This document shows positions 2,070 through 63,006 of a stretch of 64,000 bases of DNA, in pieces. Where the stretch lies: assembly GCA_038087875.1 (NCBI GenBank), contig CM075991.1, positions 8,620,001 through 8,684,000 on the forward strand. The letters run 5' to 3'. Positions within the stretch are counted from its first letter, which is position 1, and every line of letters starts with the position of its first letter. The position numbers were made by a program, and so were the translations under genes. The stretch is from Malacoraja senta. Taxonomy: Eukaryota. The notes under the pieces are model-generated. The model was given only the letters and a program-made list of their open reading frames with translations. It did no database searches and was not told where the DNA came from.

Positions 2070-3271
2070 AGGGTACAAAGAGAATGTAAGGAGTGAAAAG
2101 GACTAGGTCAAAGCAGACGGTGATCAAGGACATGTACAATGGTTCATTAATGGCTATGGAGAAGGTGACAATGAGGCATACAAACTATACAATTAATCAA
2201 GAGGTCAGTGAAACTAATTGGAAAACTAGGGTGGGGGAACTAGAGAGGGGAAAAGCAAGGATTACTTGAAGTTAGAGGTCAATATTCATGCCTGTGTAGG
2301 AAGGAACTACAGATAATGGTTTAAACCGAAGATAGACGCAAACAACTGGAGAGACTCAGCGGGACAGGCAGCATCTCTGGCGAGAAGGACTGGGTGGTAG
2401 CCCAGTGGTATGAATATTGATTTCTCTAGAAACATAGAAACATAGAAACTAGGTGCAGGAGGAGGCCATTCGGCCCTTCGAGCCGGCACTGCCATTCATT
2501 GTGAGCATGGCTGATCGTCCCCTATCAATAACCCGTGCCTGCCTTCTCCCCATATCCCTTGACTCCACTAGCCCCTAGAGCTCTATCTAACTCTCTCTTA
2601 AATCCATCCAGTGACTTGGCCTCCACTGCCCTCTGTGGCAGGGAATTCCATAAATTCACAACTCTCTGGGTGAAAAAGTTTTTTCTCACCTCAGTCTTAA
2701 ATGACCTCCCCTTTAATCTAAGACTGTGGCCCCTGGTTCTGGACTCGCCCAACATTGGGAACATTTTTCCTGCATCTAGCTTGTCCAGTCCTTTTATAAT
2801 TTTATATGTTTCTATAAGATTCCCCCTCATCCTTCTAAACTCCTGTGAATACAAGCCTAGTCTTTTCAATATTTCCTCATATGACAGTCCAGGGATCAAT
2901 CTTGTGAACCTACGCTGCACTGCTTCAATCACAAGGATGTCCTTCCTCAAATCAGGAGACCAATACTGTACACAATACTCCCGATAGTCTTGGCATTCCC
3001 TCTCTCTCTATCTCTCCCCCACCCAAGTCGCACCAGCTTCTCGTTCTCACCCAACAAACAGCTAACAATGGCCTGTTTCCTTTATCATCGTTGCTTTTTT
3101 CCATATTTTTTATTCGTTGTTCTTTATCTCTCAACATCATCATCTATATCTCTTGTTTCCCTTATCCCTAACCCATCTGAAGAAGGGTCTCGACCTGAAC
3201 CGTCACCCATTCCTTCTCTCCGGAGGTGCCACCTGGCCCGCTGAGTTACTCCAGCTTTTTGTGTCTATCTT
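2070..3271. mobile_element. Penelope-like 3' fragments (inverted arms), interrupted by CR1
   Basis: GGTATGAATATTGATTTCTCT (end of the GIY-YIG ORF), pyrimidine-rich UTR and pLTR on + (2400-3271); inverted related UTR on - (2070-2292). Confidence 0.65.
2428..2985 (-). mobile_element. CR1 LINE, 5'-truncated
   Basis: ORF 2525-2950 has CR1 ORF2 C-terminal motifs (VQRRFTRLIPG, TRGHSL, FFTQRVVNLWNSLP); (CTATGTTT)n tail. Confidence 0.92.
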
Positions 3272-4130
3272 CAATTCAATTTATTTGTCTTTTGGACAAA
3301 TTTGTCATTTGGACCCCGTTGAGGTCCAAACGAAATGTTGTTTCTGCAGCCATACATTACAAAACGAAGAAGACCCGAGACACAACACAATTGACACATA
3401 CATCCATCACAACGCTGTGATGGAAGGCAAAAAAAACGTATCTCTCCACTGCACTCCCCCCCCCCGATGTCAGAGTCAAAGTCAAAGCCCACGGCGGGCG
3501 ATGGTGATTATCCCGCGGCCATTAAAGCCACGCCGGGTGATGCAAGGTCGCGCACCGGGTCTTGGTGTTAGAGCCCCGGCGCGCGCCCGCAAAGTTCAGC
3601 GGCCATTCCAAGCCGCGCGGAGGGATAAAGCCCCGCTCCAGGTGCTCTTCAACCCCGCAACTCGGGCGGGAGAAGTCGCCGCTGTGGAAGCCCCGAAAAG
3701 CGGTCTCCCACCAGGGGACCCGCGGGCTTCCAGTGTTGCCGTCCGCCAGACCCGCGGTTGTAGCCTCCGAATCTCCGGCGGTCGGGTCGCAGCAGCGATT
3801 GTCTCCACCACAGCTCCACCCGCTCCGGACTCGGCCAGCCCCGTGACGGTGAGAAGTCCGCAGCTCCACAACTGGAGCCCCAGGTCGTTCCTGCTGGAGG
3901 CCGCTCCACGTTGCCCAGCCCCAACGACAACGGAGACCCGACAAAGAAAAGGTCGGGGTCTCCCGTGCAGGGGAAAGATTTCAAAGTTTCCCCCCCCACC
4001 CCCACCCCCACCCCCCCACACACATACCCCGACAAAAAAAATAATAAAAAACTACATAAAAACGAGACAAAAATAATAAAAAGACAGACGGACTGCAGAG
4101 GCCGCTGAAGACGAAAGTCGCGCCGCCCAC
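3272..4130 (-). mobile_element. Non-coding GC-rich non-autonomous retroelement with Rex-type tail
   Basis: 5' end GCGGCCTCTGCAGTCCGTCTGT shared with 33309-34110; 3' hairpin plus AATGACAAAT..AAATAAATTGAATT tail; CpG-rich core with no RT motifs. Confidence 0.6.
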
Positions 4131-4170: not shown

Positions 4171-4752
4171 ATAGATAGATAGATAGATAGAATCTTTATT
4201 CGCCACACGACCAGGGTTGGTGGTATTTGAGTTCGGTACATGATGGTACACGGCTTTAGTCACATTAACACTAATAACAACACAGATCATAATAATAAAG
4301 TGCATCCATACCACATCACAAATCACAAATCTCACCAACAATACATAGTGCAAAAGAACAGACAAAGACCATAGACAAGTCACTGTATACATCAAAAGAC
4401 CTTAGTATTGTCTGTTATTGGAGGGAATTAAGTGTTCTTATTGCTGAGGGGAAGAAACTGTTTTTAAAACGGGTGGATTTTGTAGCAAGTGACCTAAGGC
4501 GCCTCCCTGAAGGGAGAGACTGGAAAAGGTGGTTTGCTGGATGGGAGGGGTCCGAGATGATCTTTGTTGCCCGTTTTGAGGTACGTTGGAGGTAAATGGA
4601 ATGGATTGAGGGGAGGGGAGAGTTGATGATCCTAGAGGCCATGGAGACAATGCGCTGTATTCTGTGTAGTGAGTGACTGTCAGTGTTTCCGTACCAGACT
4701 GTGATTGAGGAGGTGATGATGCTTTCAATGATGGATTGATAGAAGCGGACCA
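4171..4752 (-). mobile_element. Rex1/Babar LINE 3' fragment inserted in a Penelope fragment
   Basis: FYQSIIES..ITVWYG..DPSHP..LPSGRR..FKNSFFPSAIR; (CTAT)n tail; Penelope sequence GCGAAAT|GAGGTGTTGTTCCTCCAATTTGC resumes on both sides. Confidence 0.85.
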
Positions 4753-5418
4753 GGAGGTGTTGTTCCTCCAATTTGCATGTGGCCTCACTCTGTTAACGGA
4801 GCAGGCCCAGGACAGAAAGGTCAGACGGTGTGGGAATGGGAAGGGGGGAGTTAAAGTGAGTTTGTTGTCCACAACTTTCTGGGCACGCACTTTATGTTCA
4901 AACAGTGGCAATGCTGCTAACATACTTCACTAGTTCCGAAGACCTTTGGGATATCGTGGGGTCGGGAAAGGTACTGTAGAAATGGAGATTGTTCTTTTTT
5001 CCCACACAGTGAGTGAAAGAGAGTTACATAATAAAAATTGATTATTCCTCTAGTAAACTGTACTGGCCAGAGCGAAGTTACATACAAATGATGTGTGTGG
5101 AATCAATTGCAATCACTCACAGCATTAGAAGTGACCATGTGTGACTGATAGGAAAAATGTCCAAATATCTCTATTCTGCTCAGGGATCACGGTGTCACTT
5201 TCAGCAGCCAAAATATTTACACGACACGATGACCTGTTGGGAAGAAAAGATCCTGTCTGATAAAAGGTTTGAGGAAGGGTCTCCACCCGAAACGCCACCC
5301 ATTCCTTCTATCCAGAGATTCTGCCTGTCCCGCTGAGTTACTCCAGCATTTTGGGTCTACCTTCGATTTAAACCAGCACCTGCAGTTCTTTCCTACACAC
5401 ATTGAGAAGGGGTGCAGA

Positions 5419-6197
5419 TGTATTGTATTGTATTGTATTGTATATCTTTATTGTCATTTCCTGAGTATTCGCATACCCAGAGGAAACAAAAAAACGTTCC
5501 TCAACCAGTGTCCATTTCAATGTGCAGTAAAAAATAAATAGAAGTAAAATTACATATATCATGAACAAATGAACACTCTACTCTCTACTAAACATCAACA
5601 GGCGTTCCGATCGGCAGCGGCACGACAGTGGCTCTGCTGCAGTGTGTCCAGGTTGGTGGTTGGTGCACGATACTTTGGCAGGGGGCAAAGTCCGTTTATC
5701 AGTCTTATAACCTGCGGGAAGAAGCTGAGGAGCATCCTGCTGGTTTTGCACCTAATGCTCCGGTACCTCTTCCCAGATGGCAGGATGGAGAATATGTGGT
5801 GCCATGGGTGGTAGGGGTCTTTGATGATGGAGATGGCTCTGCTGATACATCTCTTCCTGTATATGTCCAGCAGGAAAGGGAGTGGAGCACCAATAATCCT
5901 GCTGGCAGTCTTCACAATCCTGTCTAGTTGGTGCCGTTCGTACGCCTTGCAGCTCCCGAACCAGGAAGTGATGCCGTAGGTTAATGTGCTCTCGATTGTC
6001 CCCCTATAAAAAGTTCGTAGGTGTGTAGTGGGGAGACCTGCTTTACATAGTCTTCGGAGAGGGTGTAGTCGCTGCTGGGCTCTCTTGACCAGTGCTGTGG
6101 TGTTGGTCGTGGACGTCAGGTCATCTGACGGGTGGAGTCCTAGGAACTTCACGCTGTTGACCCTTTCCACATCAGCTCCATCGATGTGCAGAGGTGT
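5419..6197 (-). mobile_element. Rex1/Babar LINE 3' fragment
   Basis: ORF 5595-6170 KFLGL..AQQRL..FYRGTIES..DPYHP..LPSGKRYRS; (CAATA)n tail. Confidence 0.88.
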
Positions 6198-6504
6198 ATT
6201 GGTGTATCTAGGTGGTATTGAGGAAAGGTTAGTATTGAGGAGTGGATTTTATGGTGAATGTGATAACTCTCTCAAGGTCAATGTTGGTAAAATGCTATAA
6301 TGTGGATAAGTGTAGAGAGTTTTTTTTCTTTCAATCCCTTACTGAGGTACAGTGTAATTTGCTTTAGTTTACTCAGGCAAAGGAGAAACTGTCTCAGGGA
6401 TATAAATACCCTCTAGTTGGTGTTGAGCTGCCTTCTTGAAACACTGCAGTGTCTGACATGAAAGAGCTCCCATGGTGTTGCTGTGGGAGGTGTTTGGGGG
6501 AGGC

Positions 6505-11158: not shown

Positions 11159-12496
11159 CCTTCGCTCCATAGATGCTGCCTCACCCGCTGAGTTTCTCCA
11201 GCATTTTTGTCTACCTTCGATGTTCAGATTGCACAGTTTCCAATTCAGCGTTTCCCACTAAACTCCAGCTAAATGCAATAACAATCACAGTTACACTGTC
11301 GTGTCAGTGAGTTGAACATACTGCATTCCGACTTCTCAATTTTTTAACTTCATAATGAAATGATATTGATGCAGTCACAGTTGGTCAGAAACAAACAAGA
11401 CCATTATCAGCATGCCTGGGGCATGTAATCGATCGCGGACGGGTTCATAACTAGAAGAGTAATGGCTCCTTGGTTTTCCAATCACTGCATTGTAACTACA
11501 GTCTGCAGCTAATGAGTAATACTGTCCTACTTATATCTAGAGCTTTTACACTTCAGGGCCCTGGTTGCAAATAACAACTTGCACTCTTCCAGTGGGGAGA
11601 AGGCAGATCAAGAACAACCACAGGAACAAATTAAAGTCGCAAGGAACCGCAGACGCTGGTTTACCAACAAAAAAAAAGGCAAAGTGCTGGAGCAACTCAG
11701 CAGGTCAGACAGCTTCTCTGGAGAACATGGATCGGTGATGTTTCGGGTTGAGACCCTTCTTCAGAATGTTTGCGGTGGGTGGGTGTGGGGGTGGAGTGGG
11801 GGGGGGGGGAAGCTGGAAGAGCGGAGGAGTCTGAAGAAGGGTCTTGACCCGAAACCTTCCTCCAGAGATGCTGCCTGACCGGCTGAGTTACCCCTTCATT
11901 TTGGTGTCTGTCTTAGGGGCAGGACAAAGCTTGTTGATTGATATATTAATATGGGGGGAGGGGGGGGTGATAGGCAGATGGTTGATCAAAGGCCAGAGAT
12001 GAAAAGCCAAAAGGGGTGAGATAAATTTAGAAGAGGTGCAAATGGTGAAGCCAGAGGAAGGAATAGAGGTGGAAAGGGAGAAGATGGAGTAGATTAAAAG
12101 CTAAATTTGCTGTCAATACTCAGCAGGTCAGGCTCCATCTGTGGAAAAAGAAACAGGGTTAATGGCCTTGAACTTGCCAGAAAGACCTGGGAGTTAAAAT
12201 TGGCAAAATGCAGATACAGACACCTGCAGATGCTGGTTTGTACCAAAGATAGACACAAAGTGCTGGAATAACTGAACGGGTCAGGCAGCATCTCCGGAGA
12301 AAAAGGATGGGTGACGTTTCGGGTGGGGACCCTTCTTCAGACCTTGCTTTCAAAGGCTTTCAATGGGGCCATGTCCAACCTCCTCCATAGGAGCTCTGAA
12401 GTCTTCCTACACACTGGCCTCTTGAATTGTCCTTGAGTTTAATTGCTCCGCACTGTTGCCAGGTGTGCTCTCAGCTTACCTGGTGCCTTTACTTTG

Positions 12497-19345: not shown

Positions 19346-20764
19346 GAGAAGCAGAAAGAGTCTAGGATAGAGATATAAAGTAATGAAGGAAAAGAGAGAG
19401 ATATTCAGGTATAGAGAGGGAGAAGACACAGGGAGACAAATAGAGAGAATGAGACAGATGGAAAGAGAGAAACACACAAACAAGCAACTGAGATGGTCAG
19501 AGAGATAGACGGACTGTGGGATTGCAACCAGCACAGCGGGAAAGTAATTATGCCCCTTTGGTTCCAAAGGCATCAAATAAAACAGTGAAAACAACTGTCA
19601 ATCATAACGAGATGAAGCTGGGTCTCAATTACACAAGAACATTGGGATTATTGAATGCTGTTGGCAAGAGCTCAGGCAATATAGAGAAAAAATGACAACA
19701 AAGGAAGGTTACTTCTGATTTCAGGGGGAAATGAATATTTCAAGTGTCTGTCACTGCCCTTTGTGATATTGGTTTGTGCAGTGTGATTAAACCCAGGCCT
19801 AACTCAGAAATAGACAGAAAATAGTGGGAATATCAGAAATAGACAGAAAATAGTGGGAATATATGGTTGCACAAAGGCTCAGAGGGACAGAGTCCTAGAG
19901 AAGACTTTCACCAACTTTCACAATCATGGGCATTCGTTAATCAAGAATACTGTGGGCAAGGCATTTATTTAGGTCAAAAGGACACAAAGTGCTGGGGTAA
20001 CTCAGCAGACCAGGCAGCATCTCGGGAGAACGTGGATATGCGACGTTTCGGATCAGGAGGCTCAAGAAGGGACTGGACCCCCAAAAATGTCACCTGTCCA
20101 TGTTCTCCCATGTTCTCCAGAGATGCAATCTGACCTGCTGAGTTGCTCTGTGGAGTAGACGAAATGTTTAAGAAAGAACTGCAGATGCTTTTCGGGGATA
20201 GGGCCACGGTACAACCTCGAACAAGGATTGTTCGATGTACACTACAAAGAGGCAGGCATAGCTGGGGCCCATGCGCTTGCCCCATAGCTACGCCTTGGAT
20301 TTGGAGAAAATGGGAAAAGTCAAACGAAAAGTTGTTGAGGAGGGTATCGGTAGACGGAGTTACTCCAGCACTTTGTGTTCTTTTGTGTGTGAACCCGCAT
20401 CTGCAGTTCTTTGTTTCTACATTTATTTAGGACAGATTATCAGTGCGCAAAATAGTAGTTCCAGTTTTCGAGAGAAACTGCGTGGAAGCAGGCCCTTTGG
20501 CCCACTGAGTCCATGCTGACCACCGATCATCCATTCACGCAAGTTCTATGTTATTCCACTTTCTTATCCACTCCCCTTACACATTAGGGGCAGTTTTACA
20601 ATTAACCTACAAGCCCGCGTGTCTTCGGGATGTGGGGGGGGGGGGGGGGGAACCTGGAGCAGCTAAAGAATCCCATGCACCAAAGGCAGATTGTGCAAAC
20701 TCCACACCAACAGTACCCAAGGTCAGCATTCAACCTGGGTATGTGGCGCTGAGAGGCAGCAGCT

Positions 20765-23108: not shown

Positions 23109-23189
23109 CAGCGCTGCTTTATATAATTACACATCAAGTAATGTTTAGTAAAAACTTTTTATGTCAATGGATATTTTTAAAGCAGAGAT

Positions 23190-23382
23190 CGGGTGAGGCA
23201 GCATCTATGGAGCGAAGGAAATAGGCAACGTTTCGGGTCGAAACCCTTCTTCAGACTGAGAAAGGTTTCGACCCGAAACGTTGCCTATTTCCTTCGCTCC
23301 ATAGATGCTGCCTCACCCGCTGAGTTTCTCCAGCATTTTTGTCTCCCTTCGATTTTCCAGCATCTGCAGTTCCTTCTTAAGC
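23190..23382. mobile_element. Fold-back pLTR unit with hammerhead core
   Basis: Inverted arms around 23255; intact minus-strand core at 23227-23254. Confidence 0.75.
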
Positions 23383-26286: not shown

Positions 26287-28556
26287 GTAGATACATGGGA
26301 AGGGTATAATTAGGGGTCGGAGTGGGGGAGAGGGAGTGAGTGAAGGAGAGAGGGGGAGAGGGTGGGAGGAGGGAGAGAGGGGGAGAGAGGAAGAGAGGGA
26401 GAGAGGGAGGGAGAGAGGGAGGAAGAGGTGACAAAAAAGTGGAGAAATAAAAGAGGAAGAGAAAACCAAAGAGGTAAAAAGGGAAATATGGAGAGATTTA
26501 TGAAGGGAATTACGGAATTTAGGACCCAGGCATCTGAAGAACTCTCTACGCGTAGTTTAGTGATTAAATCAGGGTTGTGTAAGAATTTTAGGATTATAGC
26601 AGTCATGGGAACACTTGAGATGATAACAAATGGATCCAAAGAAGGATTCAAAGAGAACGTTGAGAAAGACATAGGTTTAAGGTGAGGGAGGAAAGATTTA
26701 ATAACTCAAGGAGTAACCTCTTCACACAAAGAGTGGTGGGTGTATGGAAAGAGCTGCCAGAGGAGGTCGTTGAGGCAGATACGATTGCAACATTTAAGAA
26801 ACATTTCGACAGGTTTGTGGATAGGACAGGTTTAGAGGGATATGGGCGAAGCACGGACAGGTGGGACTAGTGTAGATGGGACATGTTGGTCGGTGTGGCA
26901 AGTTAGGCCATAGGGCCTACTTCCACGCTGTATGACCCTATGTCTCTATCATCCTTGCCAAAGTCTTTAGTTTGAACAAGTGATTAGATTGAGTTTAATT
27001 TATTGTCACGTGTACCGAGGTTGAGTGAAAAGCTTTTGTTGTGTGCTAACCAGTCAGCGGAAAGAGCATACACGATGACAAACAATTATAAACAATATAG
27101 GGTGGTGAGTATCGATCTCTGGAGACTTGAGGCAGCAAATACATTGGAAATAACAAAGCTGTTATAGGCTGTACTCTGGAGTACAGGCATCCTGTACATG
27201 TAAAGCATTTTAGTGGAATGACTACATTGAGGATAATGGTGGAAGCAACAAACACACAGAAAATTGAAAAGTGCAAAAACAAGCATTTCCAGGAAAATAA
27301 AGGTTCCTATTAAGACCACATGATTCGGGTGCCACTGGGAAATCAGGAACCGCGGTTGAATTCTTGATGGGAATCAATTTGTAAACCTCAATCTGAGGAT
27401 GTCCCACTGCGCTGTACGGCTGATGAGGTCATTTTATAGCAGGTACTTGTGGTCTTTTGGAGTCCGTGGCAGGCAATTAGTACGCAGCAGGATCCCACAA
27501 ACCCCATAAGTGTGAGGGCAGCAATGTGGTGCAGCGGTAGAGTTGCTGCCTTACAGCGTTCGATCCTGTCCACTGTGCCTTCTGTTGTTTAGAAGGCACA
27601 AAATTGTTGGTCCCAATCCCTTCAAGGCAAGGCAGATACTGGTTTACAAAAGAGGACACAAAGTGTTGGAGTAACTCAGTAGGTCAGACTAAAGATCGTC
27701 TTACCGCTGAAGATAGGCAGAAAATGCTGGAGTAACTCAGTGGGTTAGGGAGCATCTCTGGAGAAAAATAAATAGGTCAACACAAAATGCCGGAGTAACT
27801 CAACGGGACAGGCAGCATCTCTGGAGAGAAATAATGGGTGATGTTTCGGGTCGAGACCCTTCTTCAGCCCGAAACGTCACCCATTCCTTCTCTCCAGAGA
27901 CGCCGCCTGTCCCGCTGAGTTACTCCAGCATTTTGTGTCTACCTTCGATTTAACCCAGCATCTGCAGTTCTTTCCTACACAGCTATTCTTCTAATGTTAT
28001 GTTCTTACATGTTGGGGATACAAATGGAGGCTGCAAAAGTAACACGAAAAGGAATAGGGTGACGTTTCCGGTCGAGACCCTTCTTCAGACTGAGCTGAGT
28101 TATTCCAGCACTTAGTACCCATCCTCCATGAACATTTGTTGATACAATGCCAGTGTTGTGAATGGATTACTGGTTGTGAGTAATTAACATGGCTTTACTG
28201 CCAATTAGGAGAGGTTCAATTAAAGTGAGATCTTTACAAGTCATTGTTATAACAATATTTACAGATTACCCCAACGCTAATTGTGTGTCAGGAGTTGTGA
28301 AGCCTCGCGTCTGAAAGGCTGTCCATATCCTTTCCATTTCGGAAGGAATTAGTGTCAATGAAACCCAACCAAAGGAAAAAAAACAACTCAAGTATTGTCA
28401 TCAGTTGGCTCATTCAATCAAGCCTAGTTTATCCAGTCTAGACATCGATTAACGTCTTCTGCACAAACCTTTAAACAGATGTGTTTATATTATATAATTG
28501 TTAGTCATCTTCAACTGGTACTTGGAAGGGGACAAATATGTTTATAAGTCCATAGA

Positions 28557-31043: not shown

Positions 31044-31347
31044 ATACATATGCATATATATATTATAGTAAGAAAGAACTTCTTCTTCCTCATGTCCGGC
31101 CATCTTCCATATCACGTCTTTCCGGTCGGTCAGTGACGGTCGGTGGCTGCAGAATTGGCTACTTCAGTCAGTCACTGTGGTTCAGTTTCTGTCGTCAGCA
31201 TTGCCCGGGATGCGCCACGTGGAGGCTTCTGCTTGCATCCCAAGAAAGAACTGCAGATGCTGGTATAAATCGAAGATAGACGCAAAATGCTGGAGTAACT
31301 CAGCGGGACAGGCAGCATCTCTGGAGAGAAGGAATGGGTGACGTTTC

Positions 31348-35471: not shown

Positions 35472-36393
35472 TTACTCAGCTTTATGTGTCCACCCTGAGG
35501 AGGAGATGGATCAAACATATCGGCAATCTATATATGGAAATAAATGGTTAGTTTAGAGTTACCGCGTGCACACGTTCCCTTTGGTCCCCCGAGTCCGCGC
35601 CGACCTGTGATCCCTGTACACTGTCACTACCCTACTAGCTAGGGATAATTTCCAATTTTACCAAGGCCAAATAACCCACAAATCTGTATGTCTTTGGAGT
35701 GTGGGAGGAAACCTGGTGCACCCGGAGAAAACCCACTGGGTCCGGGGAGAACATACAAACTCCGTACAGGATTGAACCCGGGTCTCTGGCGCTGTCTGGC
35801 AGCAACTCTACTGCTGTTCCATCGTGCCATCGCCCAATGATAGATTTTGACAATCTTGATCATCTCAACATCTGCAATCCGTCAACACTGTCAAACAAGA
35901 CCACCAAAAAGATAGCTTCACAAAACAAGGAGGCGGCTGATCTGATCAGAGAGTTTGTGCTGATCTTCGTCAAAGGGTCAATGACCTTCTTCTGGTCCTT
36001 ATTGATACACATTGTAAATGGATTGAAGTTCGACAGGAAGGATCATGCAATTCAACTGAATGCACAATTGAGGGGCCACAAACAATCTTCCCATCTCTTG
36101 TTCTACCTTAACAATTGACGTCAGATAATGAACCACAATTGAATCCATTCATTTAAATGCTTGATCAGAAGGAATGTAATTAAACATACATAAACTCCCC
36201 AACATTATTTACTTCTAACGATGTAGCAGAAAGGTCTTAGGTATACAAAAATGCTGGAGAAACTCAGCGGGTGCAGCAGCATCTATGGAGCGAAGGAAAT
36301 AGGCAACGTTTCGGGCCAAAACCCTTCTTCAGACCTATTTCCTTCGCTCCATAGATGCTGCCACACCCGCTGAGTTTCTCCAGCACTTTTGTC

Positions 36394-36788
36394 CAAAGAT
36401 CCTATAGCGGAGCAAGATAGACCACTCCTGCTAAATGCAATGGGCTGACGTGTAGTACGCAACGGAGCGGAACATGGGCCTTTTTTTCATCCATTTCCGT
36501 AACCCGAACCGACCCGACTCACAGTGTAATCAACGTTGCGGGGGAACAGTTTGTGTTAATAAATTTAGATTCTGAAAATGAGGAGAAGATTTTGACCAAA
36601 TAACTTTTATTTTTACGAGGATGTTTCCGTAACCGGCTTCCGTCTCCGCACTAGTATCCTATGGGATCTTTGGTGCGGAGACGGAAGCCGGTTACGGAAA
36701 TGGGGCCTTAAATTACCCGTGAATCTGCCCATGACCGTACTACGTCTTTTTCGTCGAGTGGACTATCTTGCTCGCTATAGGATCTTTG
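36394..36788. mobile_element. Non-autonomous DNA transposon (P-like MITE), copy 3
   Basis: TIR CAAAGATCCTATAGCGGAGCAAGATAGACCACTC / GAGTGGACTATCTTGCTCGCTATAGGATCTTTG; TSD CTTTTGTC / CTTTTGTT. Confidence 0.9.
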
Positions 36789-37350
36789 CTTTTGTTGACC
36801 TTCGATTTTCCAGCATCTGCAGTTCCTTCTTAAACTCTTTAGCAGAAAGGTCTTTATGAATTCTCAAGAAAGCTTTGAAAAGGCAGTTCCAAGGTTGTTT
36901 GAATCTAAACTATGAATCATTTCAGATAACTTTCCAATCAATACCACGTCCCATCATAGTATTCACTCCAGAGGAACTATTGACCCATCACAGTGTGACT
37001 GTGCTTGAGTTTATTAAAGGCCAACTTGGTAAAGGAAATGGAGAGAAAGCAGCCGCAGAAATAATGATCACGATTCATACGTTAAGGAGAAGCAAAGGGA
37101 AGCAGATTAAGCAAGATGAGAAAGTGAGAATATGAGGGCAGCCCTAGAAACAGACACTTTGGACCATTTCATCCATGCTAAGTAACTAAGATATCTATCT
37201 GAGCTAGTCCCATCTGCCTGCATTTTGCCTGTATCCCTATGAAACTTTGCATGTACAGGTATCTGTTTAATGTCTTTAAACATTGTAATTGTACCCATCT
37301 CCACTGCTTCCTCTGCAGCGTGTTCCATGTATGCACCACCCGCTGTGTAA

Positions 37351-37931: not shown

Positions 37932-38076
37932 TTAGTCATTCAGCAATGAAACAAGACCTTCGGCCCGACTGACCCATGTCAACCAAAATGCTTCATCCGC
38001 TTTAGCGTTTGGCCCATATCCCTCTAAATCTTTCCAATCTGTGAACCTGTCCAAATGTCTTTTAAATATTGTTATG

Positions 38077-38495
38077 TGACGTTTCAGGTCAAGACCCTTC
38101 TTCAGACTTCAGACCCTTCTTCAGACTTCAGACCCTTCTTCAGACTGGTTATGGATGAGGGAAATCAGAGATATAGACAATGATGTAGAGAGATAAAGAA
38201 CAATGAATGAAAGATATGCAAAAAAGTAACGATGTTAAACGGGGCCATTGTTAGCTGTTTGTTGGGTGAAAACGAGCAGCTAGTGCAAGTTGGGTGGGGG
38301 AGGGATAGAGTAGAGGGAATGCCGGGGCCACCTGAAGTTAGCGAAATCAATTTTCATACCACTGGGCTGTAAGCTGCCCAAGCGAAATATGAGATGCTGT
38401 TCCTCCAATTTGCGTTTAGCCACAACGGAGGAGACCTGGGACAGAAAGGTCTGTGTGGGAATGGGAAGGAGAATTAAAGTGTTTGGCAACCAGGG
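38077..38495 (-). mobile_element. Penelope-like element 3' fragment
   Basis: VAKHFNSPSHSHTDLSV / KRKLEEQHLIFRLGSLQPSGMKIDF (GIY-YIG C-terminus), UTR and pLTR with a 19-bp stutter at 38090-38146. Confidence 0.82.
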
Positions 38496-39063
38496 AGATC
38501 ACTCCCAACATACTTGTGGTATAATTTTGTGGAAATATATAAACAAATAATGAATGGAATATAATGATGTAATTGGATGTGTGACTCCAGCATGTGTTAG
38601 TTGTCTCCAACAGTGGAATTAACACATTAGCTGAAGTCGTGCAAGAAGAGGATTTAGTCACGTGTACCGAGGTACAGTGAAAAGCTTTTGTTGTGTGCTA
38701 ACCAGTCAGCAGAAAGACAATACATGATTACAATCGATCCATTTGCCGTATATAGTTACATGATAAGGCAATAACGTTTAGTGCAAGGTAAAGCCAGTAA
38801 AGTCCGATCAAGGGTAGTCCGAGGGTCACCAAAGAGGTAGATACTAGTTCAGCACTGCTCTCTGGTTGTGGTAGGATGATTCAGTTGCCTGAAAACAGCT
38901 GGGAAGAAACTGTCTCTAAATCTGGTTGTGTGCGTTTTCAAACCTCTACACCAAATAGTGAATGGAATATAATAATGTCATTGCATGTGTGATTCCAACA
39001 GTGGATTTAACACATTAGCTGACGTCATGCAAGAAAAGGATTGCATGTTTAATTCTGCAGCAG

Positions 39064-39290
39064 TGTTTAAGAAGGGACTGCAGATGCTGGAAAATCGAAG
39101 GTAGACAAAACTGCTGCAGAAACTCAACGGGTGCAGCAGCATCTATGGAGCAAAGGAAATAGGCAACGTTTCGGGCCGAAACCTTTTTTCAGACTGAAGA
39201 AGGGTTTCGGTCTGAAGAAGGGTTTCGGCCCGAAACGTTGCCTATTTCCTTCGCTCCATAGATGCTGCTGCACCCGCTGAGTTTCTCCAG
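39064..39290. mobile_element. Fold-back pLTR unit with hammerhead cores on both strands
   Basis: 14-bp TSD TAATTCTGCAGCAG (39050-39063 / 39291-39304); inverted arms. Confidence 0.82.
39212..39239 (+). ncRNA. Minimal hammerhead ribozyme motif (representative copy)
   Basis: CTGAAGA-A-GGGTT-TC-GGCCC-GAAA-CG-TT: CUGANGA and GAAA core boxes, stem II and palindromic stem III; stem I is weak. Confidence 0.6.
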
Positions 39291-42094: not shown

Positions 42095-42185
42095 GACATA
42101 AATGCTGGAGAAACTCAGCGGGTGAGGCAGCATCTATGGAGCGAAGGAAATAGGCGACGTTTCGGGTCGGGACCTTTCTTCAGAC
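42095..42185 (-). mobile_element. Solo 91-bp pLTR/hammerhead unit
   Basis: 15-bp TSD TTTCTAAGTCAGGCT (42080-42094 / 42186-42200). Confidence 0.75.
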
Positions 42186-42745
42186 TTTCTAAGTCAGGCT
42201 TGTCAGTCTGAAGAATCAATTCAATTCAATTCAATTCAATTCAACTTTAATGTCATTGCACAAATACTGAGTATGGGTACAACGAAATGCAATTTTGCGT
42301 CAGTCCGTAGTAGTAGTGCAATATAGAAATTTAAAAAAAAATTAAAAAATTAAAATAAATTAAAAAAAAGAGGATACAGAATAATCAAAAATACAGAATA
42401 ATTAACAATGGGGACGGAGGGACCGGAGGAATCTATCGGCGGGACTCCGAGTTCAGCAATGCGACGGTATAATTGTGGAAGCTGTTCCTCATCCTACTGG
42501 TACGAGACCTGAGGCTCCTGTACCGCCTCCCTGATGGGAGGAGGGCAAACAGTCCATAGTTGGGGTGGGGAGGCTGCCTGACCCATTGAGTTACTCTAGC
42601 ACTTTGTGCCTTCGCTAGTAAATCATCATCTGCAGTTCCATATTTCTACTTTCTATGATCCTCTGCATTTATCGGATATTCTTGCCTCCATTGGAGCATG
42701 TTGGCCAAGGACTAAGAACACCTTTTGGCCAGGGTAATTCCACTT

Positions 42746-44015: not shown

Positions 44016-45572
44016 TTAATTCAGCCCGGACTCATGTAGGCTTGAAAGGCTTCTTTGATTCTCTGCTTCCTTGAACCTTCTGTGACAAGGTTGTCCAGGC
44101 CAAGCTGTCCATGTGGCACAAACATGCACCATAGGGTTAACACAGCCAAGGCAGGCTCCTTCTGACACAAAGGACCCATTTCAATTTTCACCGTCAATAG
44201 CCATTTCGTAGCGAAAAAGCCGCACATCGTGAATAAAGCCTACAGGCCTCTGAATAAAAATCACTCTGACCTAAACTTCACGTCTATTAATTTCAGCAGC
44301 AATAAGCTTCAGATGAATGCAGGTGTCCATTTGAGCAGCAAGTTTCATGCTGCTTCCCCGAGCAGTGAACAATGACCTGTCCACATATATTTTAGTGCCT
44401 TAGAGCAGGGAAACAGGCCCTTTAGTCCCATCTTGTCTCTGCCAAGCAAGTTGGCACACCGGGCTAGTTCCATTTACCTGCATTTGGCCCATAACCTTGC
44501 CAAACCTTCAGAACGGGTGTCTGGAGATACCACACCAGCCCAGGTGACTATGTGCCTGCCCGCCACTGAAGCAGATCTAAGATTCAAGATTCAAGAGAGT
44601 TTATTGTCATGTGTCCCTGATAGGACAATGAAATTCTTGCTTTGCTTCAGCACAACAGAACATAGTAGGCATTGACTACAAAACAAAATATGTGTCCATA
44701 TACCATTATATAAATATATACACACATCAATAAATAAACTGATAAAGTGCAAATAACAGATAATGGGCTATTAATGTTCAGAGTTTTGTCCGAGCCAAGT
44801 TTAATAGCCTGATGGCTGTGGGGAAGTAGCTATTCCTGAACCTGGTCGTTGCAGTCTTCAGGCTCCTGAACCTTCTACCAGAAGGTAGCAGGGTAATACA
44901 AGCACATATTACAATCACTCCACACTCTTAAATCTCTACTCCTACAGCAACATTTCCTACTACACTGTAAATGGCTTGAGTGTAATCAAGTGGACACAGA
45001 AAGCTGGAGTAACTCAGCGGGACAGGCAGCATCTCTGGAGAGAAGGAATGGGTGACGTTTCGGGCCGAGACCCTTCTTCAGACCGATTGTGATCATGCAT
45101 TGTCTTCAATGCCGACTGGATAGCACGCAACAAAAGTTTTTCACTGTACCTCGGTAATAAACTAAACTGGAATTGAAGCTGAGAGAGTCAGGCTGGAGAT
45201 CCAGTGTGGTCTGTGTGGAGTTTGCATGTTCTTCGTTTCCCCGGGTGCTCAAGTTTCCTCCACTTCCCAAAATCGAGCTGGTTGGTCAGTTAGACGGGCG
45301 GCTGTAAATCGTTCTTAGTGTCAAGGTGCATGGTGAGAATCTGAGGGAAATTGATGGGAATGCTGGGAGAAAGGGTCAAGGGGGAACTAACGGAAGAATA
45401 GGATTGAAGATTCAAGATTCAAGAGAGTTTATTGTCATGTGTCCCAGACAGGACAATGAAATTCTTGCTTTGCTTCAGCACAACAGAATATAGTAGACAT
45501 TGACTACAAAACAGATCAGTGTGTCCATATACCATTATATAATGTACATTATATACAGTGTGTCCATATACC

Positions 45573-46042
45573 GATCTACATCGGTGAGACCAAGCGGAGG
45601 CTTGGCGATCGTTTCGCCGAACACCTCCGGTCGGTCCGCAATAACCAACCTGACCTCCCGGTGGCTCAGCACTTCAACTCCCCCTCCCATTCCGTATCTG
45701 ACCTCTCTGTCCTGGGTCTCCTCCATGGCCACAGCGAGCAACACCGTAAATTGGAGGAAATGCACCTCATATTCCGCTTGGGCAGTCTACATCCTGGGGG
45801 CTTGAACATTGAATTCTCCCAATTCTGCTAGCCCTTGCTGTCCCCTCCCCTTCATCAGCCCTCTGGTTGTCTCCTCCCCTCCCCCAGCCCTCGGGCTCCT
45901 CCTCCACCTTTTTTCCTTTTTTCCTTTCTTCTCCCCACCCCCTATCAGTCTGAAGAAGGGTTTCGGCCCAAAACGTTACCTATTTCCTTCGCTCCATAGA
46001 TGCTGCTGCACCCGCTGAGTTTCTCCAGCATTTTTGTGTACC
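45573..46042 (+). mobile_element. Penelope-like element, 5'-truncated: GIY-YIG endonuclease end, UTR and pLTR
   Basis: Open frame 45577-45831 YIGETKRRLGDRFAEHLRSV..PVAQHFNSPSH..RKLEEMHLIFRLGSLHPGGLNIEF; hammerhead-type core at 45950-45977 with GAAA mutated to AAAA. Confidence 0.9.
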
Positions 46043-46292
46043 TACCATTATATAAATATATACACACATGGATAAAGTTCTGAGTGTTTTCCAATCAGAA
46101 GCCTTGGATGAACTTTGAGATCCGCACTCTTCTGAAGACCAGACACCGGGCATTCATGTCTGATGCTACAGTGGTCTACAAGAAGTCCAGATACGAACCT
46201 TGGTAAGGCCACCATAAAGAATGTTCCGATGGCTAGCATAGACCCAATGGATCGAACGGCCTTCTTCTGTGCGATAAGGAAATATGAAATCG

Positions 46293-50594: not shown

Positions 50595-53500
50595 TATTCA
50601 CAACTCTATGGCTGAAAAAGTTTCCCTCATCTCAGTCCTAAATGGCCTACCCCTTATTCTTAAACTGTGACCCCTGGTTCTGCACGATGTTTTTCCAACA
50701 TGGGGAACATTTTTCCTGCATCTAGCCTGTCCAATCCCTTAAGAATTTCATATGTTTCTCGTATAAACCAAACTGAACTGAACCCGTTAAGGTCAAGCGG
50801 AGTTAGCTGTCGTGGACACAAGTACGGCGGGGGTGCAAGATGAGGGTGAAAATCCTGGCTTGAGGCAGCACCGCAGGCAGGTGGATTTAGACACAAGAAT
50901 CGCACACAAGAAATAAAACAAACTAGACGTAGAATTGACCAAAAGAAAGACCACGCAATAAAAAAAGCAAGACATTCGAGCAGGAAAGTACGGGCTGAGT
51001 TTGGAGTCTGCGGCTGGCGAGCTGGGCCTACGATACGATAAGATAATGATAAGATAGAACGTTATTTATCCCAGGAGTGGAATTGATCTGCCAGCAATCA
51101 TAAAAACACAAAATACATGAAATTAAAGTGGAAAGGATTGGGGATGTGCAAAGATTTGGGGGAGGGTGGGGGGGAGAGTGGGTGGGGGGGGGGAGTCAGT
51201 CTATCCCACGACAGAAGGGGGAGGAGTTGTACAGTTTGATAGCCACAGGGAAGAAGGATCTCCTGTGGCGTTCTGTGCTGCATCTTGGTGGAACCAGTCT
51301 GTTGCTGAAGGTGCTCCTCAGGTTGACCAGTGTGTCATGGTGGAGGACATGGCGCAAGGAGCATAGCCTGCATGGCAGGTCCAGGCCAGCTAGAGGGGCT
51401 AGGCCCCTCTCGCTGAGATACTCCCGACCCCAGGCTCACCGGGATACTAATTAGAAAAATACAACAAGTCCATGGTAGAGCAAGAGGTGCAAGCGACTAG
51501 TGTAGCTGGGACATGTGGGCTGGTGTGGGCAAGTTGGGCCGAAGGGCCTGTTTCCACAATATATCACTCCACGACTATGACTCTAAGAGGTGACCGAGGT
51601 AGGACAACAATGTCACACCTCACAGATGTGGTTATTAAGTGCTGAGCCACATAAAGATGTCAGATTGATGTAACGCTTGGAACAGATGTAATATGGGTCC
51701 CCAGATAATAATTGCTCCTTAATGGATCATTTTGCTGAACACTTGCGCTCAGTCCGCCAAGGCCTGCTGGATCTCTCGGTTACTAAATATTTTAGTTATC
51801 CCCGTACTGACCTTTCTGACCTGGCCTCCTCCATCTGCCAGAGGGAGGCCACATGCAAACTGGAGGAACAGCTCCTCATATTAGGGGCGGCACAGTAATG
51901 CAGCGGTATAGTTGCTGCCTTACAGCGCCGGAGACCCAGGTTTGCTCCTGACTACGGGAGCTGTCTGTGTGGAGTTTGTTTGTTCTCCCCGTGACCGTGT
52001 GGGTTTTCTCTGGCTTGCTGCGGTTTCCTCCCACAGGCGTACAGGTTTGTAGGTTAATTGGCTTTGGTGAAACTGTGCATTGTCCCTCATGTGCAGGATA
52101 GTGTTAGTGTTGGTGGATCACTGGTCTGCACTGCCTCGGTGGGCCATATAACAATATAACCAAATAACAATTACAGCATGGAAACAGCCATCTCGGCCCT
52201 TCTAGTCCGTGCCGATCACTTACTCTCACCTAGTCCAATCTACCTGCACTCAGACCATAACCCTCCATTCCTTTCCCGTCCATATACCTATCCAATTTAT
52301 TTTAAATGATAAATGGAGAACCTGCCTCCACCACTTCCACTGGAAGCTCATTCCACACAGCTACCACTCTCTGAGTAAAGAAGTTCCCCCTCATGTTACC
52401 CCTAAACTTCTGTCCCATGTTTTTCTAAAGCACTGTATCTCTAAAGTCTAAAATTTAATTTCATCTGCCTGCACATGATCCATATCCCTGTGTTCTTTGT
52501 GTTCACAATGGGGGGGGTGCACAGGAGCCAATCGTAGGTTTAATTTAGTTTAGTGCAGAAACAGGCCCTTCGGCCCTCCGATCCCCGCACATTAACACTA
52601 TCCTACACATAGCAGGGACAATGTTTACATTTGTACCAAGCCAATTAACCTACACACCTGTACGTCTTTGGTGTGTGGGAAGGAAACTGAAGATCGCGGA
52701 GAAAAACCCACGCAGGTCACGGGGAGAGCGTGCAAACTGCGTACAGACAGCACGTGCAGTCGGGACTCTACCGCTGCGCCACAATGCTGCCCTGGGTGTA
52801 CGCTCCAGCCCAACCCTGCCGGTCGCTTCTACAGAAAACACTACCAAGGCTGCGCACGGGAGCAGAGAGGGAGAGTGGGGAAGAAAAAGATGGGGCGGTG
52901 GGGGAGAAAGGAATTTTTTTTTTTTGTAGGAAGTTAAATAGAAGATGACCTACAATTATAAAATCCATTGAGGCCAAGTCAATGGATATTATTAAGGCCG
53001 AGATTGACAGATTCTTGATTAGTATGTCCATGTCAGGGGTTATGGGGAGAAGGCAGGTGAATGGAGTTGGGAGGGAGAGATAGATCAGCCATGATTGAAT
53101 GGTGGAGTGGAATCGATGGACCGAATGGTCTAATTCTGCTCTTATCCCTTATGAACTTATGAACTACAACGTCATGCAACCCATGACACTGGCTGGACAT
53201 TTTTTTTTCTTCACATTTTAGTGTTTTTCAGTAAATCATCTGCAACGCACAACTAATATTGGCGTCAGGGAAATAGTGATAAAATTCCTCATGCCATCTG
53301 TAGTTGTAGGCCTGCCAGTTATTTATAACCCCTGCTGTCTGGCCAAGCACATTTGTTGTCATGGTCCTTAAAGGGACTCTACTCCTCTTTCACTTGTAGT
53401 GAGCTGTGCTTAAGATTTTGTGATATAAATTTTTATTAGAAGCAAACATATTACAATGTAGAGTAACATATTATAATAGAAGAAAAAACTTTTCATATAC

Positions 53501-59947: not shown

Positions 59948-61420
59948 AAGATTCTACATACCAAGATTCTACATACCAAGATTCTACATACCAAGATTCT
60001 ACATACCAAGATTCTACATACCAAGATTCTACATACCAAGATTCTACATACCAAGATTCTACATACCATCTACATACCAAGATTCTACATACCAAGATTC
60101 TACATACCAAGATTTTACATACCAAGATTCTACATACCAAGATTCTACATACCATCTACATACCAAGATTCTACATACCAAGATTCTACATACCAAGATT
60201 CTACATACCAAGATTTTACATACCATCTACATACCAAGATTCTACATACCATCTACATACCAAGATTCTACATACCAAGATTCTACATACCAAATTTTAC
60301 ATACCATCTACATACCAAGATTCTACATACCATCTACATACCAAGATTCTACATACCAAGATTCTACATACCAAGATTCTACATACCAAGATTTTACATA
60401 CCATCTACATACCAAGATTCTACATACCATCTACATACCAAGATTCTACATACCAAGATTCTACATACCAAGATTCTACATACCAAGATTTTACATACCA
60501 AGATTCTACATACCAAGATTCTACATACCATCTACATACCAAGATTCTACATACCAAGATTCTACATACCAAGATTCTACATACCAAGATTTTACATACC
60601 AAGATTCTACATACCAAGATTCTACATACCATCTACATACCAAGATTCTACATACCAAGATTCTACATACCAAGATTCTACATACCAAGATTCTACATAC
60701 CAAGAATTCTACATACCAAGATTTTACATACCAAGATTCTACATACCAAGATTCTACATACCAGATTCTACATACCATCTACATACCAAGATTCTACATA
60801 CCAAGATTCTACATACCAAGATTCTACATACCAAGATTCTACATACCAAGATTCTACATACCATCTACATACCAAGATTCTACATACCAAGATTCTACAT
60901 ACCAAGATTCTACATACCAAGATTCTACATACCAAGATTCTACATACCAAGATTCTACATACCAAGATTTTACATACCAAGATTCTACATACCAAGATTC
61001 TACATACCAAGATTCTACATACCATCTACATACCAAGATTCTACATACCAAGATTCTACATACCAAGATTCTACATACCAAGATTCTACATACAAAGATT
61101 CTACATACCAAGATTTTACAATACCAAGATTCTACATACCAAGATTCTACATACCAAGATTCTACATACCATCTACATACCAAGATTCTACATACCAAGA
61201 TTCTACATACCAAGATTCCACATACCAAGATTCTACATACCAAGATTCTACATACCATCTACATACCAAGATTCTACATACCAAGATTCTACATACCATC
61301 TACATACCAAGATTCTACATACCAAGATTCTACATACCAAGATTCTACATACCAAGATTCTACATACCAAGATTCTACATACCAAGATTCTACATACCAA
61401 GATTCTACATACCAAGATTC
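59948..61420 (+). repeat. 15-bp tandem repeat (AAGATTCTACATACC)n with 11-bp variants
   Basis: About 100 near-perfect units; explains the 534-aa ORF. Confidence 0.97.
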
Positions 61421-61614
61421 GGAGATCATAGTTGCTCCACAGTGGACAATATTCCAAGCTCATTGGCTTTACAAGAAGGTCAGAATCAAGATGGTCTGGC
61501 CACCAGTGTTTGCTCAAATATCACAGGAGCTTGCTGGCTGAAAAGGAAAAGGGAGAAATTTCATGAGGTCATAAGTGATGAGTAGAATTAGGCCATTCGG
61601 CCATCGCCCACTTG

Positions 61615-62656
<1,042 letters not shown>

Positions 62657-63006
62657 GAAATGGAGGTGGTGAGAGATAGTGAGGATGAAGGAATGCAGAG
62701 TGGTGGATGAGGGGGCGAGGAGTGGGGAGGGAAAGTGGGGAGAGGAAGGGAAGGAGTGGAGAGAGGAGGGAGGGAGGGAGTGGGAGAGAGTGGATGGAGA
62801 GAATGGGTAGGGAGGGTGTGAAAGGGAGTGCCGATGAGTGACCAAATTCAGGCAGATGCACATACACATGAAGGGGAAGGAGAGGCAGAGGCAGGTTGGT
62901 AGTGATGGAGAATATATAGTTCAGTCTTTTGGTCGAAAGGAGGTTTCAGGGCAATAACCATTAAATGAGCAGAAGCAACAATAGGGGGAAGACAAATCCC
63001 CTGGCT

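What the first reader, a model, noticed from the sequence alone, without database searches (positions are those of the whole stretch)
45950..46042. The most abundant short repeat is a Penelope terminal repeat carrying a minimal hammerhead ribozyme
Seen: the repeat directly follows a GIY-YIG ORF and UTR here and at 38077-38495. It begins CTGAAGA-A-stemII-GAAA-CG-T(C/T). Intact cores include 39212 (+), 12313-12340 (-), 23227-23254 (-), 36306-36333 (-) and 45054-45081 (-). Stem II pairing is kept across variants (GGGTC-TC-GACCC, GGGTT-TC-GGCCC, GGGT-CCCC-ACCC). Established: Penelope-like elements carry minimal type I hammerheads with palindromic stem III that are thought to cleave as dimers. Caveats: an extra A precedes stem II and stem I is only 2-3 bp.
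Basis: partly seen in the sequence, partly recalled or inferred. Interest (0 to 1): 0.7.

Follow-up and report, generated by a model that had tools for sequence, protein, structure and literature searches.

The report
Skate-type Penelope repeat with hammerhead motif
The commonest short repeat in this stretch of skate- or ray-like DNA is the end of a known kind of jumping gene and carries that gene's usual small self-cutting RNA motif, but the copy that was flagged has a mutation that should disable it.

Summary
The ~100/135-nt repeat (62 profile hits in 44 clusters, the deepest repeat in the window) is the 3' end of the pseudo-LTR of a Neptune-type Penelope-like retroelement. It carries the minimal type I hammerhead motif of Cervera & de la Pena 2014. 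At 45950 it follows a GIY-YIG fragment and a 118-nt UTR, inside a 13-bp target duplication. Relatives carry the motif at the same place (58 of 68 loci), with compensatory stem changes.

Corrections: (1) The flagged copy is broken: G12 is A, where 76-94% of contig depth in four public runs reads G. (2) The extra A is a published hallmark, not a caveat. (3) Stem II is 4 bp plus a tetraloop and shows no covariation among window copies. (4) Native stem I is only 2 bp, below the published 3-bp descriptor but with precedent. Cleavage is untested.

Unexplained: most copies that span the motif start a few bases before it, not at the cut site, so uncleaved RNA was copied.

In passing: an intact-looking HDV-like ribozyme motif at 31149-31241 (-).

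The parts
45530..45542 (+). Left target-site duplication (13 bp, AT-rich) of the focal insertion
   Evidence: The same 13-mer stands at 45530 and 46043, and once at 44701 in an uninterrupted sibling of the host repeat
45543..45573 (+). 5' junction filler, including a second copy of target sequence (45556-45572 repeats 45517-45533)
   Evidence: Read from the sequence
45574..45831 (+). 5'-truncated GIY-YIG endonuclease end of the PLE ORF, with stop codon at 45829-45831
   Evidence: Translation; best homologues from skate, ray and sharks at 86-62% identity; homologues carry RVT_1 plus GIY-YIG; the fragment alone has no Pfam hit
45832..45947 (+). Pyrimidine-rich 3' UTR / pseudo-LTR body
   Evidence: 118 nt from stop to C3; a contig of run X21 bridges 45700-45994
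45948..45979 (+). Minimal type I hammerhead motif: 2-bp stem I (45948-49 with 45978-79), CUGAAGA 45950-56, extra A 45957, stem II 45958-69, second box 45970-73 (G12 mutated to A here), CG 45974-75, U16.1 45976, H17 45977; predicted cut between 45977 and 45978
   Evidence: family base at 45970 is G in 76-94% of depth in 4 of 4 runs
45980..46042 (+). pLTR 3' segment, ending at the shorter of two family end points (no tail)
46043..46055 (+). Right target-site duplication
38075..38490 (-). Second EN-linked copy: frameshifted GIY-YIG end (38490-38331), ~180-nt UTR of another type, two partial core duplicates, core 38105-38078, cut off 3 nt after the site
39064..39290 (.). Head-to-head pair; tail on the minus arm only; 14-bp duplication at 39050 and 39291; intact core at 39212 (+)
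36239..36839 (.). Head-to-head pair with a nested unrelated insertion (about 36394-36792); 15-bp duplication at 36224 and 36840; intact core 36332-36305 (-), whose stem I is lengthened by the inverted arm
42095..42185 (-). Solo copy bounded by a 15-bp duplication (42080, 42186), starting 2-3 nt before the core
23189..23382 (.). Head-to-head pair; intact core 23254-23227 (-); tail on the plus arm only
44986..45086 (-). Solo copy, subfamily B, intact core 45081-45054
12213..12344 (-). Solo copy with tail, subfamily C, intact core 12340-12313
20195..20418 (.). Decayed RT fragment of the same kind of element (20360-20195, -) with an inverted pLTR tail (20357-20418, +) at its 5' break
   Evidence: tblastn with shark homologues; sequence
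3060..3280 (+). Copy preceded by the same UTR type as the 38075-38490 copy; second box broken

Best explanation
The repeat is the 3' end of the pseudo-LTR of a Neptune-type Penelope-like retroelement (PLE) of a batoid-like cartilaginous fish. It spread by target-primed reverse transcription as short, 5'-truncated, often head-to-head copies. SHOWN: EN-UTR-motif order, 13-15-bp target duplications, two 3' end points about 35 nt apart, inverted pairs, four age-graded subfamilies, and the same motif at the same place in distant relatives with compensatory stems. FROM LITERATURE: PLE RT starts inside the RNA at two sites that define the optional tail; minimal hammerheads lack a closed stem III and cleave weakly, as dimers or with the element's protein. 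INFERRED: in tandem transcripts of active source elements, two motifs pair through the palindromic ACGU and cut after GUC/GUU at low efficiency, probably only with protein help, given a 2-bp stem I. The genomic copies came from uncleaved RNA and decay as dead DNA. The flagged copy (G12A) should not cleave. Confidence is about 0.95 for the identity and about 0.55 that the intact family motif cleaves measurably; the figure given is for the identity with the transposition route.
For: EN fragment matches RT+GIY-YIG proteins of skates and sharks. Loose contig ends at 45575 continue into the CxxC of the EN in two runs. A read-through protein model from a shark (P0005) ends in SLMKGLRPKR, against GLKKGLGPKR and SLKKGFGPKR for window cores read in frame. 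In loci found by the EN alone: the strict published descriptor hits downstream in 23 of 68, against 0 on the reverse strand, 0 of 64 upstream and 0 of 52 further downstream; a covariance model hits within 350 nt in 58 of 68, and 52 of 62 without training loci. L013 is a whole element: 357-nt direct repeats, each with the motif, around a 936-codon RT+GIY-YIG frame. Covariation in relatives: 95% of cells paired, 58 two-sided changes, 0 of 500 shuffles as high (alignment fitted to the structure, sequences related). Only the motif, not the flank, is shared with those loci (7 hits, model positions 5-49). Core columns differing between subfamily consensuses: 0 of 11 against 22 of 72 in the flank, p = 0.026. 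3' ends: 24 of 62 at model positions 88-112, 22 at 130 or more (the model ends at 140), 4 between. 9 of 44 clusters are head-to-head.
Against: No cleavage data. Native stem I is 2 bp: the third pair is unpaired in 21 of 34 window matches, against 62 of 70 paired in relatives. The four window copies with 3 bp or more have a G at -3 that the UTR-linked copies lack; two get it from local duplications. Stem II forms with probability 0-0.22 in 9 of 9 window copies folded as monomers, against 0.57 or more in 7 of 9 relatives. The active dimer fold lies 17-34 kcal/mol above the minimum for the five 2-bp copies tested, two of which also have a broken stem II, against 7-18 in nine relatives. The subfamily test is not significant without the five-copy subfamily D (0 of 11 vs 12 of 75, p = 0.17). 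Per-copy decay of core against flank is 4.8% vs 7.4% outside CpG, p = 0.11. An automatic scan found flanking repeats of 9 nt or more in only 2 of 44 clusters (random background 5.8%); three of the four long duplications came from hand-chosen boundaries. No full-length element of this family was obtained (no genome held).
Confidence: 0.9

Rival explanations
1. Same origin, but the motif no longer cleaves in this lineage. It is a vestigial hammerhead kept as part of the pLTR, or for protein binding, promoter or folding roles.
For: 2-bp stem I with one G-C pair. Stem II is outcompeted by pairing with the strand after the cut site. Copies derive from uncleaved RNA: 2 of 62 hits start at the cut site, no excess (p = 0.35; 0.13 if a third, ambiguous one is counted). 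In an anole PLE, hammerhead mutants did not affect insertion in vitro and no RNA-seq ends were found at the site (PMC11167929).
Against: The core is unchanged across four subfamilies and shared with distant relatives while the flanks diverge. The U-A to U-G changes in stems I and II of subfamily A keep pairing. 2-bp stem I has precedent in D. virilis, where an extended version cleaved in vitro (PMC4209133). The anole motif cleaved only with protein, so poor predicted folding is expected.
Confidence: 0.35
2. The short copies are not just truncated ends. They form a non-autonomous, SINE-like unit: an RNA that starts at an initiator-like TCAGT at the motif's 5' edge and is copied whole, from the internal RT start sites, by PLE proteins.
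For: 32 of 62 hits reach the motif's 5' edge; 23 of these 32 have no pyrimidine-rich UTR before it (14 or fewer pyrimidines of 24). In three public runs, many loose ends lie at 45947-45948 with unrelated A-rich sequence before them (agreement 0.32-0.35). The solo copy at 42095-42185 is bounded by a 15-bp duplication. Tandem joints (46043 back to 45948) occur in two runs. An initiator-like TCACT is described in a rotifer pLTR (PMC3846280).
Against: An RT stall or fold-back at the pyrimidine tract gives the same pattern. The boundary is ragged (0-6 nt of upstream match). In D. virilis the start site lies 46 nt before a 75-nt intron whose end meets stem I, so well upstream of the motif. The initiator consensus is recalled, short and of low complexity. 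No RNA-end data were available.
Confidence: 0.2
3. The repeat is an unrelated SINE or MITE, and the hammerhead match or the link to the EN is chance.
For: Rfam reports no hammerhead family anywhere in the window at E up to 10. Most copies have no PLE coding sequence beside them. Inverted pairs look MITE-like.
Against: Two independent EN-UTR-motif units in the window and a bridging contig; the motif at the same place in 58 of 68 related loci; a whole element with the motif in both repeats; descriptor background 0.17 per window against 15.
Confidence: 0.02

Closest known systems
Minimal type I hammerheads (min-HHR) in the pLTRs of metazoan Penelope-like elements (Cervera & de la Pena 2014, PMC4209133; main text parts 1-2 of 4 and the whole supplementary PDF text read)
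   Same: Consensus NNN-CUGANGAH-G..C-GAAAN-NUH-NNN, extra base between 9 and 10.1, G10.1-C11.1, palindromic 15.2-16.2, U-rich 5' flank, mostly single motifs from truncated elements, pairs on opposite strands.
   Different: Native stem I is 2 bp (descriptor minimum 3). No cartilaginous fish is in that paper's alignment (Fig. S3) or Table S1.
Neptune clade PLEs; the Acropora digitifera Neptune hammerhead of Fig. S3 / Table S1 in PMC4209133
   Same: Relatives found by the window's EN (e.g. L047, L015) carry a motif that reads as the listed A. digitifera one from stem I to stem I. [quoted passage not shown]
   Different: No tree with labelled references was built. The linker is shared with Nematis. 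The window's own fragments are truncated before the linker.
Poseidon PAc of Anolis carolinensis (Frangieh et al. 2024, PMC11167929; parts 1-2 of 4 read)
   Same: Two internal RT start sites that define a 30-40-nt optional tail, AT-rich targets, uncleaved RNA as template.
   Different: Another clade (no linker finger). In PAc the ORF starts at stem II; the ORF start of this family is unknown.
Non-LTR retrozymes of animals (Li, Clavereau & Pollet 2026, 10.64898/2026.07.22.740005; parts 1-2 of 5 and passages read)
   Same: Non-coding, hammerhead-bearing derivatives of pLTRs; reported in one chondrichthyan (mean unit 363 bp).
   Different: Defined as tandem arrays with a whole motif in each unit. 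The window has solo and head-to-head copies of about 100-135 nt, and no head-to-tail pair of whole motifs. The preprint's supplements were not open to me and may list this family.

Membership tests
EN+ Penelope-like element | Single ORF with RT and C-terminal GIY-YIG endonuclease | tested here: met
   EN end at 45574-45831 and RT fragment at 20360-20195 match RT+GIY-YIG proteins. A whole ORF was seen only in relative L013.
EN+ Penelope-like element | Pseudo-LTR flanking the ORF on both sides | tested here: inconclusive
   3' position shown twice in the window. The 5' copy was shown only in L013; no full-length element of this family was held.
EN+ Penelope-like element | Inverted 5'-truncated copies, optional 30-40-nt tail, variable target duplication | tested here: met
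   9 of 44 clusters head-to-head; two 3' end classes; four duplications of 13-15 bp
Neptune clade | CX2-5CxxC linker before the GIY-YIG and CCHH motif in it | tested here: met
   In closest homologues P0002-P0005. The window fragment keeps the histidines; contig ends supply the CxxC. Shared with Nematis.
Neptune clade | RT phylogeny with labelled Neptune references | not tested
   No labelled reference sequences were at hand
Minimal type I hammerhead (min-HHR) | Boxes CUGANGA and GAAA..UH | tested here: met
   Family: 17 of 26 full-span copies intact. Not met in the focal copy (G12A).
Minimal type I hammerhead (min-HHR) | Extra base between 9 and 10.1; stem II of 3-7 bp opened by G10.1-C11.1 | tested here: met
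   (G-C in 27 and G-U in 4 of 36)
Minimal type I hammerhead (min-HHR) | Palindromic 15.2-16.2 without loop III | tested here: met
   CG in all four subfamily consensuses; CA/TG variants fit CpG decay
Minimal type I hammerhead (min-HHR) | Stem I of 3 bp or more (published search descriptor) | tested here: not met
   2 bp in the UTR-linked context. The same paper counts 2-bp cases (D. virilis, Culex) as variants of the family, so this is a search threshold, not a boundary of the family.
Minimal type I hammerhead (min-HHR) | Self-cleavage as dimer or with protein | not testable with these tools
   Only folding energies; contigs cannot show RNA ends
Non-LTR retrozyme | Tandem array with a whole hammerhead in at least two consecutive units | tested here: not met
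   None in the window. Tandem joints in public contigs hint at such arrays elsewhere.

The most novel reading that the evidence does not exclude
In batoids, the PLE hammerhead has been weakened to a 2-bp stem I, and an initiator at its 5' edge makes a ~100-135-nt RNA. The element's internally initiating RT copies this RNA whole and uncleaved, making a ribozyme-headed mini-retroposon the commonest short repeat here. Weak stem I would then be what lets the motif be copied intact. Head-to-head copies would arise when the cDNA end folds back on the motif's own short stems: at 36332 the junction uses exactly the stem I register.
Probability: 0.15. Interest if true: 0.6.

Novelty: new member of a known kind. 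Interest (0 to 1): 0.27.

Why it matters
As a class this has been known since 2014. The new part is the host group: I found no description for skates, rays or sharks in five literature searches. Repbase and Dfam could not be searched and probably hold the family, and a 2026 preprint reports related repeats in one chondrichthyan. The family is a useful test bed for an open question: whether PLE hammerheads cleave in vivo and matter for transposition. It offers four dated subfamilies, a naturally weak stem I, natural core mutants, and insertions whose ends record which RNA was copied. A 2-bp stem I also means that descriptor-based counts miss most copies (4 of 15 core-positive window sites pass the 3-bp rule).

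Tried and rejected
Whole genome: none held, so all copy statistics rest on one window. Rfam: no hammerhead family matched; the miRNA hits are the inverted pairs. Pfam on the EN fragment alone: no hit. Viral contigs (protein and DNA pattern) and prokaryote genomes (DNA pattern): nothing. Sequencing runs: no RNA holder listed; 4 of the 24 listed runs were laid, all as contigs, so ends, strand and level could not be read. A selected 'off' fold between the core and the strand after the cut site: not supported; z from -2.4 to +1.4, 1 of 18 below p = 0.05. Copies made from cleaved RNA: no excess of starts at the cut site; the starts at 27777 and 36333 fit microhomology. Selection on individual copies: not shown. 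Monomer folding is no more stable than shuffles in 6 of 6 copies. A 3' splice site at CAG/T before the motif was considered; no shared upstream exon appears among the loose ends shown (24 shown, 1343 hidden). Lunse et al. 2017 is not held; I know it only as cited in PMC6765202 (passages). For subfamily statistics, 7 hits with fused or deleted 5' parts were trimmed and one dropped, and 35 of 62 hits were used. In one search the strand field was mis-parsed; minus-strand hits were taken and none lies within 350 nt downstream. No host exon was found in 20 long frames, apart from one ALKBH8_N hit. Earlier findings of the scan: none bore on this.

Full report
Setting. No genome is held for this window. 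The GIY-YIG fragment beside the finding has its best matches in Leucoraja (86%, 75%), Rhinoraja (74%) and sharks (62-67%). The host is therefore most likely a skate or ray (inference).

The observation. The repeat is the deepest in the window (self-BLAST depth up to 47, at most 19 for other families). Profile searches give 58 and 62 hits (five shuffles gave one hit in all), in 44 clusters. The published min-HHR descriptor, read from the supplement of PMC4209133, passes 15 window sites when stem I is left free, against 0.17 per control window. The copy at 45950 is not: G12 is A. Laid contigs of four public runs read G at that place in 76-94% of depth, so this is a private change, at a CpG. Of 26 copies that span the core, 17 keep both boxes.

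Anatomy of the focal insertion. It runs from 45543 to 46042 between 13-bp duplications at 45530 and 46043. It sits inside another repeat whose uninterrupted sibling has the 13-mer once, at 44701. It holds 30 nt of junction filler, the last 85 codons of a GIY-YIG domain, a stop, a 118-nt pyrimidine-rich UTR, the motif and 63 nt more. A second EN-UTR-motif unit lies at 38490-38075 (-), with another UTR that recurs at 3060-3175. A decayed RT piece at 20360-20195 has an inverted pLTR tail at its 5' break. Copies end in two classes about 35 nt apart: 24 of 62 at model positions 88-112 and 22 at 130 or more, near the model's end at 140. Nine of 44 clusters are head-to-head, several with the tail on one arm only. 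Three more duplications of 14-15 bp bound young copies. An automatic scan found only 2 of 44 clusters with 9 nt or more, near background; three of the four long ones needed hand-set boundaries. These traits are those described for PLEs (PMC8557442 and PMC3846280, passages; PMC11167929). Four subfamilies diverge from their consensus by 3.8, 6.8, 9.5 and 12.3%.

Relatives. A search by the EN alone gave 80 metagenome loci (the best 80 of 544). The strict descriptor hit within 500 nt downstream in 23 of 68, against 0 on the other strand, 0 of 64 upstream and 0 of 52 further away. A covariance model built from 11 window copies and 7 loci hit within 350 nt in 58 of 68, and in 52 of 62 without its training loci. 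Thirteen loci also have an inverted motif upstream of the EN. L013 is a whole element, with the motif in both 357-nt direct repeats around a 936-codon RT+GIY-YIG frame. Several loci carry a motif that reads as the Acropora digitifera Neptune hammerhead of Fig. S3. Shark homologues have the CX4CxxC linker of Neptune/Nematis. A read-through shark protein model ends in a peptide that fits the motif read in frame. Among relatives both stems covary: 58 two-sided changes, 0 of 500 shuffles as high. That alignment was fitted to the structure and the sequences are related. Nothing but the motif is shared between these loci and the window repeat.

The extra A is one of four traits that PMC4209133 lists as conserved. 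Stem II is 4 bp plus a tetraloop. Within the window it shows no covariation beyond shuffles; its variants are U-A to U-G changes and decay. Native stem I is 2 bp: UTR-linked copies have A at -3 facing C. The four copies with 3 bp or more have a G there, in two cases from local duplications. In relatives the third pair holds in 62 of 70 cells. Individual copies show no significant protection of the core (p = 0.11).

How it most likely works. Active source elements in tandem are transcribed through the pLTR. The protein nicks AT-rich DNA and starts reverse transcription inside the RNA at one of two sites, giving the two 3' ends (shown for the anole element; inferred here). Most events stop early and leave only the pLTR end, often with an inverted second arm. 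The motif has no closed stem III, so it could cut only when two motifs pair through ACGU, or with protein help. Here the predicted folds are poorer than in most relatives: stem II probability 0-0.22 in 9 of 9 window copies, and active-dimer gaps of 17-34 kcal/mol for 2-bp copies against 7-18. Copies include the whole motif and show no excess of starts at the cut site, so the template was uncleaved RNA, as in the anole study. I put cleavage by the intact family motif at about 0.55, and by the flagged copy near zero (G12 as general base is recalled knowledge).

Unexplained. 32 of 62 hits reach the motif's 5' edge, and 23 of these 32 have no pyrimidine-rich UTR before it. Three public runs show many loose ends at 45947-45948 with unrelated flanks. 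One such solo copy is bounded by a 15-bp duplication. The cause is either an RT stall at the pyrimidine tract or a short RNA starting at the initiator-like TCAGT (consensus recalled). These data cannot tell the two apart.

Comparison and verdict. It works like, and is best filed as, a min-HHR in the pLTR of a Neptune-type PLE. It fails only the 3-bp stem I search threshold, for which 2-bp precedents exist. It is not a retrozyme by the tandem definition. I found no description for cartilaginous fishes in searches. Repeat databases, Lunse et al. 2017 (not held) and the supplements of the 2026 preprint were out of reach and may hold it. New member of a known kind; interest 0.27.

Noticed in passing
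window 31241-31149 (-): A complete-looking HDV/CPEB3-like double-pseudoknot ribozyme motif: P1 7 bp, P2 6 bp, P3 3 bp, GG after P1 and a C-N-A-A strand before P2. Rfam scores are below the gathering cut-offs (24-28 bits). A descriptor written after seeing it found it once in the window and never in 10 shuffles. It is single-copy here, and its first G directly abuts the truncated tail of a pLTR copy (31356-31239). It may be the 5' end of another retroelement.
   Followed up: partly
window 36236-36400: The inverted arm gives the 36332 (-) motif a perfect stem I of 12 bp or more; the junction falls on the natural 2-bp stem I register.
   Followed up: partly
window 39189-39235 (+) and 38148-38078 (-): Partial tandem duplicates of the motif's first 18-22 nt precede the full core; they fit slippage between GGGTCT/CGGTCT and AGTCT.
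   Followed up: no
window 45944-46043, joints in runs X19 and X24: Contigs show head-to-tail joints (45977 back to 45946; 46043 back to 45948), so short tandem motif units exist in other copies and would be natural dimer substrates.
   Followed up: no
window 4745-4873 (-), 51719-51895 (+), about 2397-2430 (+): Further decayed GIY-YIG pieces of the same kind of element, without their own downstream motif.
   Followed up: partly
P0003, P0017, P0002: Database protein models of rays and sharks named receptor-transporting protein 3-like or uncharacterized end in this PLE linker and GIY-YIG; either annotation fusions or real exonisation.
   Followed up: no
window 42186-42225: A 13-nt inverted start of the motif lies just outside the right target duplication of the 42095-42185 copy.
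   Followed up: no
window 5598-6248 (-): ALKBH8_N Pfam hit (E 8e-13) in an open frame, probably part of another repeat.
   Followed up: no
window 59948-61420 and 61514-62945: Long tandem arrays that give spurious long open frames.
   Followed up: no
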